In this document: positions 18,336-21,083 of the stretch, piece after piece
Numbering within the stretch: position 1 is the first letter of the stretch
How the letters are laid out: the number at the start of each line of letters is the position of its first letter
Translations under genes and position numbers: made by a program
Notes under the pieces: generated by a model
What the model saw: only the letters and a program-made list of their open reading frames with translations
What the model was told of the DNA's origin: nothing
Database searches by the model: none
IMG/VR virus record: IMGVR_UViG_2802429228_000007
Coordinates: 1 to 21,083 of that record
Reading direction: 5' to 3' (one strand)
From: a virus
Taxonomy: Duplodnaviria; Heunggongvirae; Uroviricota; Caudoviricetes
Length of the DNA: 21,083 bases

Positions 18336-18707
18336 TCAGTTAAGAGCGATGCGGTGGTCGATGTAGCGACAATCAATCGCTTGCTGGGTTAGTTTGTCGC
18401 GCCATGCTTTCACGTTTACGAGGGTGCGGCTTCGTTTTCCAGCCTCTTCCTTGTTGGAAAAGTCTTTAGTTGGAGCTTTGAGGAGGATTCCCTCATCAAG
18501 CCATTGCCAGACCAGACGCTCGCTTACACCGCGAGTGGCGGCAAAGTCTTTCACTGTCATTGTGTCTGACATAGCGGAGCGGATCATTGTCTGCAGAGCT
18601 GGCAGCATAGCGGTAACGATGGCATCAAACTGAGCCGGATCTAACAGCACAGTTTGATTTTGTGAGTTTTGCGAATCATGCGTCGAGATTGATTTTGCAT
18701 CTGACAT
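18336..18707 (-). CDS. Apl/Cox-like DNA-binding protein (excision/switch regulator)
   Basis: First gene of the operon divergent from cI. Excisionase-like helix-turn-helix (MTVKDFAATRGVSERLVWQWLDEG). The true start may be an internal Met; the N-terminal 50 aa or so are low complexity. Confidence 0.5.
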   Translation of the reverse strand: MSDAKSISTHDSQNSQNQTVLLDPAQFDAIVTAMLPALQTMIRSAMSDTMTVKDFAATRGVSERLVWQWLDEGILLKAPTKDFSNKEEAGKRSRTLVNVKAWRDKLTQQAIDCRYIDHRIALN

Positions 18708-18827
18708 ATCGCATTATCTCCTGTTGTTTGTAGTGAACTGCATTGATGTGCATCGTGGTTGATAATCATCACTTTAGTTCGCGAAATTTAATTTTGCAAT
18801 GGCAAAAATTAATTTTGGTGGCGATAC
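18708..18827. promoter_or_regulatory. cI / apl intergenic switch region (divergent genes; promoters and operators expected)
   Basis: 120-bp AT-rich spacer between divergently transcribed cI and apl-like genes. Contains the direct repeat TTAATTTTG twice (18788-18796 and 18809-18817, 21 bp apart) flanking an imperfect inverted repeat AATTTTGC-AATG-GCAAAAAT. No confident -35/-10 pair could be assigned by eye. Confidence 0.5.
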
Positions 18828-19664
18828 ATGGCTAAATTTGGAGATGGTGCGGCTCCGGCTATCGAAAGAATCCTTTCGGCTTATGGACTTAGCTCGCAAA
18901 AAGAACTTGGCGAAAAACTTGGTATTTATGCCAACAACATAAGCAGTTGGCTTGCCAGAGATAGCGTTCCGGGCAATGTATTTGTTGAATGTGCTATTGA
19001 AACGGGCGCAGATATCGGATGGTTAGTGACAGGGGAGCTTGCAAAAGCAAACTCTCCACGTGCGACCCTGAAGGGCAAAGAGCTTTATGAAAAGGTCATG
19101 GCTTCAGGTGGTAAACCTGTTCTGAGACGCATCCTTGATGCTTACGGTTTTTCTATGCAAAAGGAGCTGGGTGATTTACTCGGTATATCATCTGGAACAA
19201 TTAGCACATGGGTTCGGCGTGATTTTTTCCCAGGCGATGTAGTTGTTACTTGTGCCCTTGATACTGGTGTTTCGCTGGAATGGTTAGCAACCGGCAAGGG
19301 GCAAATGCGAACTAACAGAGAAATGGTCACATCAAGTTTTTCAATTAAAAAATTTCGCCTTGAAGCGGGTGAGCTTAAGGACGCTGGCGAATGGCATCCA
19401 GACCCCTCGATGATACCCTCTGACTCAGAGGAGTTGATTTTTGTTGAAGGTGTTGGAGCCTCTTGGCTTGTCAACCGTTCTGCTTCGAACATAAGTAATG
19501 GGCGTTGGTTAATTGATATTGACGGCGCTCTTGATGTTTTTGATGTAATTCGTCTTCCCGGCGGAAAAGTCAGGTTGTCAAATAAGTCTGCCGAGTTTGA
19601 ATGCAGCATTACAGATATCACACCAGTAGGTGCTGTAATTTTCACATTGGAAAAACACGTATAA
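18828..19664 (+). CDS. cI: 186-type CI immunity repressor with tandemly duplicated N-terminal DNA-binding domain
   Basis: 278-aa ORF. Two N-terminal repeats of the phage-CI-repressor helix-turn-helix fold (RILSAYGLSSQKELGEKLGIYANNISSWLARDSVPGNVFVECAIETGADIGWLVTGE and RILDAYGFSMQKELGDLLGISSGTISTWVRRDFFPGDVVVTCALDTGVSLEWLATGKG). C-terminal domain (GRWLIDIDGALDVFDVIRLPGGKVRL...FECSITDITPVGAVIF) resembles the 186 CI oligomerisation domain. Confidence 0.75.
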   Translation: MAKFGDGAAPAIERILSAYGLSSQKELGEKLGIYANNISSWLARDSVPGNVFVECAIETGADIGWLVTGELAKANSPRATLKGKELYEKVMASGGKPVLRRILDAYGFSMQKELGDLLGISSGTISTWVRRDFFPGDVVVTCALDTGVSLEWLATGKGQMRTNREMVTSSFSIKKFRLEAGELKDAGEWHPDPSMIPSDSEELIFVEGVGASWLVNRSASNISNGRWLIDIDGALDVFDVIRLPGGKVRLSNKSAEFECSITDITPVGAVIFTLEKHV

Positions 19665-19672
19665 GGGACATT

Positions 19673-20011
19673 ATGAAACGTAAGCTTTTTTTAGCTTTAT
19701 TTCTTTCACTTTCTTTCGGTGCATCAGCCGCTGAAAAAACACAGGATTTAGACGGTGCTAAGTTTGGTGATGATTGGCCGTTAACTTTTGAAAAAGCTAC
19801 GGTGTCTTGTGTTAATGGTAGATATGCCTTTGTGTACGACAAAGCAACAGATGACCGATACCCATTAAATGGGTTTGCTATTGATGGTGTAAAGTCTGGA
19901 AAGCTTGAGGGGAGCGATATTGATACTGTTTGGAAAGATAGCCCGGATTATGAAGGAGTAAAAATTCCTTTGGATCCCGTAATGGATGCTGCGACAGCAC
20001 TTTGCGAATGA
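19673..20011 (+). CDS. Small secreted protein, DUF2511/YebY-like (cargo between cI and int)
   Basis: ATG at 19673 after an AAGGGA Shine-Dalgarno. Sec-type signal peptide (MKRKLFLALFLSLSFGASAAE). Mature protein of about 90 aa with two Cys (ATVSCVNG ... AATALCE) and a YPLNGFAIDG motif that resembles my recollection of E. coli YebY. Confidence 0.5.
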   Translation: MKRKLFLALFLSLSFGASAAEKTQDLDGAKFGDDWPLTFEKATVSCVNGRYAFVYDKATDDRYPLNGFAIDGVKSGKLEGSDIDTVWKDSPDYEGVKIPLDPVMDAATALCE

Positions 20012-20033
20012 TAAGAGTTGCCTCGGTGACATT

Positions 20034-21083
20034 ATGACTATAAGTAAGCAAAAAAATGGCAAATGGTTATGTGAGCTTTATCCTAATGGGCGAGAAGGGC
20101 GGCGAATACGTCGGCAATTCAATACCAAAGGTGAGGCCGAGGCATTCGAAGCATTTACGAAAAGCGAGAGTGAAGATAAGCCGTGGCTCGGCAAGAAAGA
20201 AGACCGCCGACGCTTAAGTGAGATTATCCAGCTTTGGCATAATTTACATGGACAGGCGTTGGTCGCCAGTAAGTCGCGGTTAGCTAAGCTTCAAATTGTA
20301 TGTAACGGGTTGGGCGACCCTATTGCATCTCGTCTTACCGCTAAAGATTGGGCTCATTACCGTGACCGTCGATTACGTGGCGAAATAGACAACGGCTATC
20401 ACAAAGACCCGGCGAAATGGATCGCCAAACCTATAACAGTCAATCGCGAACAGCAATACCTCGAAGCTGTGTTCAATGAACTGCGGCGATTAGGTGAATG
20501 GAGTTTACCCAATCCACTGGACGGGATTCGTGTATTCAAAGAAGCTGAGAAAGAAATGTCCTGGCTAACTTTGTCTCAGCTCCCGGAGCTGTTCCGAGCC
20601 TGTGAACAATATGGCAAAGAAAATCTTACTATGATTGTTAAGGTGTGCCTGGCTACTGGCGCACGATGGGGAGAAGCTGAGAGACTTACACGTCCCCAAC
20701 TTTCCCCCTGCAAGCTGACTTTCACCAAAACCAAAGGTAAGAAGAATCGCACGGTTCCGATTCCTAAATGGCTGTATGACGAGTTGTCCGAACGTCAGGG
20801 AAGAATGTTCAAGCCCTGCTATCAGGACTTTAAGAAGATGCTCAAACTCACAAACATTGAATTGACTGAAGGGCAGAAAACGCACGTTTTACGTCACACC
20901 TTTGGCGCGCATTTTATGATGAATGGCGGCAATATCCTTGTACTCCAGAAGATACTCGGTCACGCAAATATTCGTGAAACAATGAAGTATGCGCACTTTG
21001 CTCCTGACCATCTTGAACAAGCTGTCACCTTGAATCCGTTGTCACTGTGTATTGGCGACAACGTGGCGGCAGAGGTTGCGTAA
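20034..21083 (+). CDS. int: P2-type tyrosine integrase
   Basis: Starts MTISKQKNGKWLCELYPNGREGRRIRRQFNTKGEAEAFE, closely matching my recollection of the P2 Int N-terminus. C-terminal catalytic motifs ATGARWGEA, HVLRHTF and NIRETMKYAHFAPDHL (tyrosine nucleophile context). TAA at 21081-21083 ends at the window edge. Confidence 0.9.
   Translation: MTISKQKNGKWLCELYPNGREGRRIRRQFNTKGEAEAFEAFTKSESEDKPWLGKKEDRRRLSEIIQLWHNLHGQALVASKSRLAKLQIVCNGLGDPIASRLTAKDWAHYRDRRLRGEIDNGYHKDPAKWIAKPITVNREQQYLEAVFNELRRLGEWSLPNPLDGIRVFKEAEKEMSWLTLSQLPELFRACEQYGKENLTMIVKVCLATGARWGEAERLTRPQLSPCKLTFTKTKGKKNRTVPIPKWLYDELSERQGRMFKPCYQDFKKMLKLTNIELTEGQKTHVLRHTFGAHFMMNGGNILVLQKILGHANIRETMKYAHFAPDHLEQAVTLNPLSLCIGDNVAAEVA

What the first reader, a model, noticed from the sequence alone, without database searches (positions are those of the whole stretch)
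19673..20011. Secreted DUF2511/YebY-like protein inserted between cI and int
Seen in sequence: an ORF with a signal peptide and its own Shine-Dalgarno sits between the repressor and integrase genes, on the same strand. Established knowledge: in 186-type phages cI and int are co-transcribed from the lysogenic promoter, so a gene at this position would be expressed in the lysogen. Inference: a lysogenic-conversion periplasmic factor of unknown function; its placement suggests selection for expression during lysogeny.
Basis: partly seen in the sequence, partly recalled or inferred. Interest (0 to 1): 0.45.

Follow-up and report, generated by a model that had tools for sequence, protein, structure and literature searches.

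The report
Prophage-encoded periplasmic YebY-like protein
A PSP3-type (P2/186-like) E. coli prophage carries a small exported YebY-family gene between its repressor and integrase genes; public records already annotate it and its function is untested, but it is the most variable gene shared by these phages.

Summary
ORF 19673..20011 (+) encodes a 112-aa protein. It has a classical Sec signal peptide (MKRK / LFLALFLSLSF / ASA|AEK, no lipobox) and a DUF2511/YebY domain (Pfam 61 bits against a cut-off of 21). The two family cysteines are present, and the predicted fold matches YebY (7N0J) and then MlbQ.

The ORF lies 8 nt after cI and 22 nt before int, with no terminator or promoter between them. 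The window is a PSP3-type (Eganvirus) prophage of E. coli. The gene is PSP3 orf28, annotated as DUF2511 in RefSeq and held in PHROG 2950, so the identification is not new.

New here:
- All 68 copies examined are intact, and dN/dS is about 0.15.
- Fels-2-type and other 186-type relatives join cI directly to int.
- The gene exists as at least nine deep allele classes (48-100% aa identity). They are swapped as exact ORF-sized cassettes between flanks about 92-95% identical.
- Three classes co-circulate in E. coli at one attachment site.
- It is the most divergent shared protein of 13 complete (pro)phages, and no other gene co-varies with it.

Function is untested. My best guess is a lysogen-expressed periplasmic protective binder of the exclusion or immunity type, like the non-homologous K139 Glo at the same position. 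Modulation of copper import is the main rival.

The parts
18708..18827 (.). Switch region between the apl/cox-position gene (- strand) and cI (+ strand). It is the presumed site of the face-to-face lytic and lysogenic promoters and of the CI operators. It contains the inverted repeat AAATTTAATTTTGC/GCAAAAATTAATTT at 18784-18815.
   Evidence: Sequence and repeats. No promoter passed the strict sigma-70 scan. The promoter location is inferred from the 186-type layout (PMC3448106).
18828..19664 (+). cI immunity repressor, 278 aa, with two Phage_CI_repr HTH domains and Phage_CI_C. It is the first gene of the lysogenic unit.
   Evidence: Pfam PF07022 (2 stretches, E=3.4e-48) and PF16452 (E=8.7e-21). 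PHROG 4.
19662..19672 (+). Junction TAAGGGACATT. The cI stop codon is embedded in the Shine-Dalgarno sequence of the DUF2511 gene, an arrangement consistent with translational coupling.
   Evidence: Sequence. TAAGG(G/A) is conserved upstream of the ATG in all allele classes.
19673..19729 (+). Sec-type signal peptide, residues 1-19: MKRKLFLALFLSLSFGASA. Predicted cleavage is ASA|AEK.
   Evidence: Charge, hydrophobicity and -3/-1 rule, with no lipobox. dN/dS is 0.47 here against 0.11 in the mature part. Homologue YebY was shown to be periplasmic (PMC8689200).
19730..20011 (+). Mature DUF2511/YebY-fold domain (93 aa, about 10.2 kDa, pI about 4.3) plus the stop codon. Cys46 (19808-19810) and Cys111 (20003-20005) are the family's disulfide pair.
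   Evidence: Pfam PF10709 covers residues 29-111. PHROG 2950 matches full length at E=1e-52. 7N0J alignment. Foldseek. Conserved columns.
20012..20033 (+). 22-nt spacer holding the int ribosome-binding region (GCCTCGGTG). No terminator is present.
   Evidence: Sequence. Scan.
20034..21083 (+). Tyrosine integrase (349 aa), the last gene of the unit. The prophage end and yfiB follow in E. coli A38.
   Evidence: Pfam PF24624 and PF00589. 99.9% identical locus in E. coli A38.

Best explanation
The ORF is a real gene of a PSP3-type (Eganvirus, P2/186-like) prophage. It encodes a small Sec-exported, soluble periplasmic protein with the disulfide-stabilised YebY/MlbQ fold.

Shown here: its identity, export signals, position, conservation and allele structure.

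Inferred: it is transcribed with cI and int from the lysogenic promoter, and translated from an SD that overlaps the cI stop codon. It would therefore be made continuously in the lysogen.

Most likely function (inference, not shown): a prophage-expressed periplasmic protective binder. It would intercept something that enters the envelope from outside. The preferred target is a component delivered by a superinfecting phage, giving superinfection exclusion. The alternative target is a peptide toxin, as for the fold relative MlbQ. The deep, independently assorting allele classes would then be specificity types.
For: Identity and export.

Operon placement: gaps of 8 and 22 nt, the SD inside the cI stop codon, and no terminator or promoter in either gap. 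186 int is read by leftward lysogenic transcription (PMC7708051).

Real and selected:
- 64 IMG/VR loci, 3 annotated loci and the window all have an intact 339-342 nt CDS in the order cI-DUF2511-int.
- 67 of 68 E. coli prophages could be typed and are annotated as intact.
- dN/dS is 0.15 overall and 0.11 in the mature part.
- The gene is kept in a prophage that has lost its tail and lysis genes, and in a degraded remnant.

Conflict-like diversity:
- There are 9 allele classes at 85% aa identity.
- Divergence is confined exactly to the ORF: 50-65% nt identity, against about 92% in cI and about 95% in int.
- Synonymous sites are saturated in the ORF, while flank dS is about 0.4.
- Classes A, D and H (44, 17 and 6 genomes) coexist in E. 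coli at the same att site.
- It is the most divergent shared protein of 13 complete (pro)phages (mean distance 0.32; cI 0.215; others 0.15 or less). It is unlinked to every other gene, including cI.

Precedent at this position:
- K139 encodes Glo, annotated 'periplasmic protein; involved in phage exclusion', between cI and int.
- K139-like phages have a defence hotspot between cI and int (PMC9122126).
- 8% of the defence systems found in P2 elements lie between integrase and primase (PMC13586616).
- Other cargo enters the same interval.

Fold relative MlbQ is an immunity protein proposed to bind a lantibiotic (PMC8689200).
Against: - No experiment on any phage DUF2511 protein was found (5 papers mention DUF2511, none about phages).
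- There is no PADLOC hit and no homology to Glo (hhalign probability 2%).
- The gene is fixed in the lineage, whereas defence hotspots usually vary in gene content.
- Deep alleles with saturated dS and low dN/dS show old polymorphism shuffled by recombination. That does not demonstrate positive selection.
- No phage gene co-varies with the allele, so no partner was identified. The sample was small (13 genomes).
- The only characterised Gram-negative relative, YebY, acts in copper import and not in defence (PMC11923076).
- No lysogenic promoter was located by the consensus scan.
Confidence: 0.35

Rival explanations
1. Copper-homeostasis modulator. The phage protein would act like host YebY on the host YebZ (CopD)/YobA (CopC) importer. 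It would damp or retune copper entry, and with it copper-dependent mar activation, in the lysogen. This would be a physiological lysogenic conversion.
For: It is a true DUF2511/YebY family member with the same fold and cysteine pair. YebY co-expression lowers YebZ-dependent copper accumulation (PMC11923076). Hosts identified here include E. coli, and E. coli carries the AZY operon; Salmonella and Klebsiella, which are also listed as hosts of these phages, carry AZY operons according to the same paper. A remnant copy lies directly beside chromosomal copD-yebY in one genome.
Against: Identity to host YebY is only 27-33%. The family is often found outside copper contexts (PMC8689200). Three allele classes with 50-66% identity coexist within E. 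coli. That is hard to reconcile with one conserved host partner, although the conservation of the presumed host partners YebZ and YobA was not examined here. YebY binds copper only weakly and non-specifically.
Confidence: 0.2
2. A phage-cycle function rather than a host-benefit function. For example, a periplasmic factor needed for the phage's own lysis timing, for envelope remodelling at induction, or for establishing lysogeny.
For: The gene is universally retained in every PSP3-type phage inspected, including isolates that form plaques: PSP3, SEN1, Midge, SW9 and RCIP0057.
Against: It lies on the lysogenic rather than the lytic transcript. Fels-2-type and other 186-type relatives, with comparable lysogeny-module layouts, lack it. 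The allele does not co-vary with the lysis cassette, tail, tape-measure or fibre genes, and class H phages carry two different holin/lysozyme types. It is kept in a prophage that has lost its lysis and tail genes.
Confidence: 0.12
3. Largely neutral passenger. The gene would persist because it sits between two essential lysogeny genes and is cheap to keep, and its allele diversity would be ordinary phage mosaicism.
For: Neighbouring cI also exists as divergent alleles. Phage mosaicism is common. No phenotype is known.
Against: dN/dS of 0.11 in the mature domain, invariant motifs (WPLTF, VSC(V/I)N, TD(D/E/N)RYP(L/V)(N/S)G, AVKSGK(M/L)EG) and no pseudogene among 68 copies despite saturated synonymous divergence all show sustained purifying selection on the protein.
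Confidence: 0.1

Closest known systems
PSP3 orf28 / gp28 (NP_958085.1) and its orthologues in Eganvirus phages SEN1, SW9, SI22, Midge, vB_EcoM-613R3 and RCIP0057; RefSeq WP_001407049.1 in E. coli A38; PHROG 2950
   Same: It is the same gene. Identity is 100% to the A38/TUM14697 copy and 89% aa to PSP3, with identical cI-gene-int placement.
   Different: Nothing of substance. Those records give only 'DUF2511 domain-containing protein' or 'putative periplasmic protein'. No function has been assigned.
E. coli YebY (PDB 7N0J), third gene of the yobA-yebZ-yebY copper-import operon
   Same: Same Pfam family, signal peptide, soluble periplasmic form, two conserved cysteines, and top structural match.
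   Different: Only about 30% identity. The context is a prophage lysogeny operon rather than the CopC/CopD operon. The phage clade is separate: only one 50%-identity cluster representative scores below E=1e-30. It is also hypervariable.
MlbQ (PDB 2MVO/6QFP), lantibiotic NAI-107 self-resistance lipoprotein of Microbispora
   Same: Same fold (Foldseek probability 1.0, TM about 0.5-0.6). It is an extracytoplasmic protective binder, the working model proposed here.
   Different: 19-22% identity. MlbQ is a lipoprotein with a long linker in a Gram-positive lantibiotic cluster. The phage protein has no lipobox and no linked bacteriocin genes.
Glo of Vibrio phage K139 (NP_536629.1)
   Same: A small signal-peptide protein encoded between cI and int of a P2-related phage in the lysogenic operon. 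It is annotated as periplasmic and involved in phage exclusion.
   Different: No detectable homology (hhalign probability 2%; no DUF2511 hit). It is an analogue by position and topology only.

Membership tests
Pfam PF10709 (DUF2511 / YebY family) | HMM score above the curated gathering threshold | tested here: met
   61.1 bits against 21, E=1.4e-16, profile positions 5-87 of 87.
Pfam PF10709 (DUF2511 / YebY family) | N-terminal signal peptide (extracytoplasmic location) | tested here: met
   MKRK, a hydrophobic core and ASA|A; no lipobox. The test was heuristic, because SignalP/LipoP were not available and export was not measured.
Pfam PF10709 (DUF2511 / YebY family) | Two strictly conserved cysteines that form the stabilising disulfide | tested here: met
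   Cys46 and Cys111 align with the YebY cysteines. Cys46 is invariant across the 51 distinct sequences; Cys111 is present in all except the C111W variant of L024/L025. The bond itself cannot be tested here.
Pfam PF10709 (DUF2511 / YebY family) | YebY/MlbQ alpha/beta fold | tested here: met
   The AlphaFold model (pLDDT 69.6) gives 7N0J chains as the top seven Foldseek hits, then MlbQ 6QFP/2MVO. Model confidence is only moderate.
YebY orthologue (AZY copper-import operon) | Encoded with yobA (CopC) and yebZ (CopD) | tested here: not met
   The neighbours are cI and int of a prophage. Identity to YebY is 27-33%.
Lysogenic-conversion gene (moron) of the repressor operon | Lies on the repressor transcript, same strand, with no intervening terminator or promoter | tested here: met
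   Gaps of 8 and 22 nt. The scan finds no site in the gaps. The arrangement is constant in all 67 related loci tabulated.
Lysogenic-conversion gene (moron) of the repressor operon | Dispensable addition absent from related phages | tested here: met
   Fels-2, MLG42 and ESSI2_ev040 have cI directly followed by int. Among isolated phages the gene occurs only with PSP3-type Int.
Lysogenic-conversion gene (moron) of the repressor operon | Expressed in the lysogen and changes a host phenotype | not testable with these tools
   This needs transcript or protein detection and deletion phenotyping.
Superinfection-exclusion proteins (K139 Glo type) | Sequence or profile homology to a known exclusion protein | tested here: not met
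   hhalign against Glo gives probability 2%.
Superinfection-exclusion proteins (K139 Glo type) | Blocks infection by incoming phage when expressed | not testable with these tools
   This needs plating, adsorption and DNA-entry assays.
Known anti-phage defence systems (PADLOC-DB 2.0) | Match to any defence-protein model | tested here: not met
   No family matched at E up to 1.
MlbQ-type lantibiotic immunity lipoprotein | Lipoprotein signal (lipobox Cys) and a linked lantibiotic gene cluster | tested here: not met
   No lipobox. The prophage carries no bacteriocin genes. Only the fold is shared.

The most novel reading that the evidence does not exclude
The DUF2511 cassette would be a previously unrecognised, hypervariable periplasmic exclusion or immunity determinant of PSP3-type P2-like phages. 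That would be a new biological role for the YebY/MlbQ fold in Gram-negative bacteria. Its nine or more deep allele classes would define different specificities against incoming phages or peptide toxins, maintained by balancing selection and cassette exchange.
Probability: 0.25. Interest if true: 0.6.

Novelty: new member of a known kind. Interest (0 to 1): 0.33.

Why it matters
As an identification it adds little, because the gene is already annotated as DUF2511 in PSP3 and in E. coli RefSeq genomes.

The value is in the follow-up. A small, easily cloned periplasmic protein is fixed in a common family of enterobacterial prophages. It is probably made in every lysogen, and it is the most variable shared gene of these phages.

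If it blocks superinfection or toxins, it gives the uncharacterised DUF2511 family a function and adds a new envelope-level defence class. If it instead tunes YebZ-dependent copper entry, prophages would be modulating the copper-mar antibiotic-resistance link. Both ideas can be tested directly with three natural alleles from E. coli.

Tried and rejected
1. Partner search by co-variation. I fetched 13 complete PSP3-type (pro)phages and compared per-gene distance matrices with the DUF2511 matrix. No gene tracks it. The best values were capsid N (r=0.27, p=0.024) and a small ORF (n=21, p=0.024), neither significant after about 35 tests.
2. PADLOC gave no hit. NCBIfam gave no model. Rfam on the whole window gave no RNA family.
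3. Homology between K139 Glo and this protein: none.
4. The promoter scan for pL found nothing convincing, so co-transcription remains an inference.
5. Proteomics papers that mention DUF2511. One peptide is clearly chromosomal YebY. By my own estimate from neighbouring protein accession numbers, the other protein lies at the position expected for chromosomal yebY. Neither is evidence for prophage expression.
6. The shared GACATTATGA before both the DUF2511 and int start codons looked like an insertion scar. It is specific to this allele and absent from other classes.
7. The species-representative genome scan gave only 5 loci: Enterobacter (two species), Escherichia, Erwinia and Pantoea. This is too few for host-association statistics.

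Full report
**Observation**

The window carries an ATG-initiated ORF at 19673..20011 on the + strand, encoding 112 aa. It starts 8 nt after the stop codon of a cI repressor gene (18828..19664). It ends 22 nt before a tyrosine integrase gene (20034..21083). All three genes are on the same strand.

The cI stop codon is part of the sequence TAAGGGA, which places AAGGG 5 nt upstream of the ATG. The same TAAGG(G/A) element precedes the start codon in every allele class examined. A consensus scan found no promoter-like or terminator-like site in either gap.

**What the protein is**

- Pfam assigns residues 29-111 to PF10709 (DUF2511) at 61.1 bits against a cut-off of 21.
- PHROG 2950 matches the full length at E=1e-52. 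NCBIfam has no model for it.
- The only solved relative by sequence is E. coli YebY, 7N0J, at E=9.5e-8.
- An AlphaFold model built on 16 homologues (pLDDT 69.6) retrieves seven 7N0J chains first and then MlbQ (6QFP, 2MVO). Nothing else scores below E=1.
- The N-terminus has the features of a Sec signal peptide: MKRK, an 11-12 residue hydrophobic core, A-S-A|A and no lipobox.
- The leader evolves much faster than the mature part (dN/dS 0.47 against 0.11), while AAEK at the predicted mature end is almost invariant.
- Cys46 and Cys111 align with the two strictly conserved, disulfide-forming cysteines of YebY. YebY was shown experimentally to be periplasmic (PMC8689200).

SignalP was not available, so export is a strong prediction and not a measurement.

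**Where the window comes from, and what is already known**

The region is 99.9% identical to E. coli strains A38 and TUM14697. There it is the int-proximal end of a complete P2-like prophage of about 31 kb, inserted between rplS and yfiB.

The closest isolated phages are PSP3, SEN1, SW9/SI22, Midge, vB_EcoM-613R3 and RCIP0057; those with a taxonomy line in their records (PSP3, SW9) are classified in Eganvirus, Peduoviridae. The ORF is PSP3 orf28/gp28. RefSeq calls it 'DUF2511 domain-containing protein', and the Midge record calls it 'putative periplasmic protein'.

The full-text library holds five papers that mention DUF2511, and none concerns a phage copy. The 2011 survey of P2-like regulatory regions does not discuss it.

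**Is it an insertion, and is it conserved?**

Among isolated phages the gene occurs only together with PSP3-type Int (above 90% identity; 10 records). The next Int relatives are at most 60% identical: Fels-2, MLG42 and ESSI2_ev040. In these phages cI is followed directly by int. The gene is therefore an addition to the 186-type ground plan, but an old and fixed one.

- All 64 IMG/VR loci recovered with the protein show cI-DUF2511-int with nearly constant spacing.
- All 68 CDSs (51 distinct nucleotide sequences) are intact at 339-342 nt.
- Median pairwise dN/dS is 0.15, and no pair exceeds 0.42.
- In 5,426 complete E. coli genomes, 68 carry the module and 67 could be typed. All listed copies are annotated as intact CDSs.
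- A prophage that has lost its tail and lysis genes (strain S3) still keeps cI-DUF2511-int.
- A remote sister lineage survives as a degraded remnant in other genomes. Its two-HTH cI is 58% identical, its DUF2511 37% and its bPH_3+SHOCT protein 66%.

**New finding: extreme allelic diversity**

The protein falls into at least nine classes at 85% identity, with 48-85% identity between classes. All classes are closer to each other than to any non-phage DUF2511 protein, which reach at most about 38%.

Between the window and locus L062, nucleotide identity is about 92% through cI and about 95% through int. It drops to 50-65% exactly over the ORF. In that pair, flank dS is about 0.4 while synonymous sites in the ORF are saturated and dN is 0.44.

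These are therefore old allelic lineages moved as ORF-sized cassettes into younger backgrounds.

Three classes coexist in E. coli: class A in 44 genomes, D in 17 and H in 6. All inspected copies of classes D and H, and most of class A, sit at the same attachment site next to yfiB.

In 13 complete (pro)phages DUF2511 is the most divergent universally present protein. Its mean pairwise distance is 0.32 and the maximum 0.53. cI has 0.215 and 0.32, and every other shared gene has a mean of 0.15 or less. No gene's distances track it, not even adjacent cI (Mantel r=0.09). Class H phages carry two different lysis cassettes and different fibres.

Variation is concentrated in residues 20-34, 49-52, 68-72 and 81-109. 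The invariant core consists of WPLTF, VSC(V/I)N, TD(D/E/N)RYP(L/V)(N/S)G and AVKSGK(M/L)EG.

**The interval as a cargo site**

Some relatives carry additional genes in the same interval. One locus (L029) has a 134-aa secreted protein with no Pfam family between cI and DUF2511. Several loci have a 168-aa bPH_3+SHOCT protein between DUF2511 and int.

The literature places defence cargo here in related phages:
- K139-like Vibrio phages have a defence hotspot between cI and int (PMC9122126).
- 8% of the defence systems found in P2 elements lie between integrase and primase (PMC13586616).
- K139 itself encodes Glo between cI and int in its annotated lysogenic operon. The record describes Glo as 'periplasmic protein; involved in phage exclusion'.

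Glo is not homologous to DUF2511, so the parallel is one of position and topology only.

**How it most likely works**

Shown: a conserved, selected gene for an exported YebY-fold protein sits inside the cI-int unit.

Inferred: it is co-transcribed with cI and int in the lysogen. This rests on the spacing, the SD-stop overlap, the absence of intervening signals, and the 186 and K139 precedents.

Functional proposal (about 0.35): a lysogen-expressed periplasmic binder that intercepts an incoming foreign component. The preferred reading is superinfection exclusion. The alternative is peptide-toxin immunity in the manner of MlbQ. The allele classes would be specificity types.

Arguments for: the position precedent, the other cargo in the same interval, the conflict-like diversity within a single host species, and the protective role of the fold relative.

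Arguments against: no experimental data, no PADLOC hit, no identified partner, fixation in the lineage rather than presence/absence variation, and low dN/dS, which shows old polymorphism rather than demonstrated positive selection.

Rivals:
- Main rival (about 0.2): a YebY-like modulator of host YebZ/YobA copper import. This is supported by family membership and by the finding that YebY lowers YebZ-dependent copper uptake (PMC11923076). It is weakened by the roughly 30% identity and by multiple divergent alleles within one host species, whose YebZ and YobA I did not compare across strains.
- A phage-cycle role (about 0.12).
- A neutral passenger (about 0.1).

Both of the last two fit the data less well.

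**Verdict**

It is a member of DUF2511 but not a YebY orthologue.

Interest is modest. The hypervariable cassette behaviour and the Glo analogy give a concrete, testable hypothesis, but a specialist would not be surprised by a periplasmic cargo gene in a prophage lysogeny operon.

Noticed in passing
window 18828..19664 (+): The cI repressor (278 aa) has two tandem Phage_CI_repr HTH domains (roughly aa 12-75 and 98-161) ahead of the Phage_CI_C domain. The cI genes of Fels-2 and MLG42 are only 633 nt (about 210 aa), so this looks like a duplication of the DNA-binding domain. The same architecture appears in the remote remnant L091.
   Followed up: partly
window 18336..18707 (-): The gene in the apl/cox position encodes a 123-aa protein with no Pfam family. 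It matches PHROG 3554 and gives only a weak Cox-like hit (E=1.6e-4). This agrees with the 2011 remark that the PSP3 protein is a singleton type.
   Followed up: no
L088 (E. coli S3, NZ_CP010228.1 679400-714100): This prophage is defective. It has lost the genes from the tail tube through the lysis cassette, and its head-completion gene is truncated. It still keeps intact cI, DUF2511 and int.
   Followed up: no
L024/L025 (IMG/VR) and protein cluster P0002: A natural C111W variant (TGC to TGG) removes the second cysteine of the family's conserved disulfide. The P0002 cluster has 101 member sequences. It may be an inactive or altered form.
   Followed up: no
L034/L035/L044/L045 (about 4355-4861) and L029 (3570-3974): Extra cargo lies in the cI-int interval. 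A 168-aa bPH_3+SHOCT protein sits between DUF2511 and int. In L029 a 134-aa signal-peptide protein with no Pfam family sits between cI and DUF2511. Neither has a PADLOC hit.
   Followed up: partly
L091/L092 (e.g. CP134152.1 2823068-2831406): A degraded prophage remnant contains a partial integrase, a partial CII, an apl-position gene, a two-HTH cI, a DUF2511 gene (37% identical to the window protein) and a bPH_3+SHOCT gene. It lies immediately next to the chromosomal copD(yebZ)-yebY genes. The juxtaposition of phage and host DUF2511 genes is unexplained.
   Followed up: partly
window about 1233..2018 (+), between the baseplate V and tail S genes: A 261-aa hypothetical protein on the opposite strand was found in A38 only among the 13 genomes compared. 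Other strains carry different cargo at the same site: a HIT-family protein, a pentapeptide-repeat protein or two hypothetical proteins. This looks like a second variable cargo site, besides the known gpA-gpQ hotspot, which holds SIR2 and nSTAND1 genes in relatives.
   Followed up: no
window 18784..18815: The cI/apl intergenic region contains the AT-rich inverted repeat AAATTTAATTTTGC/GCAAAAATTAATTT and a 16-nt direct repeat spaced 21 nt apart. These are candidate CI operators.
   Followed up: no
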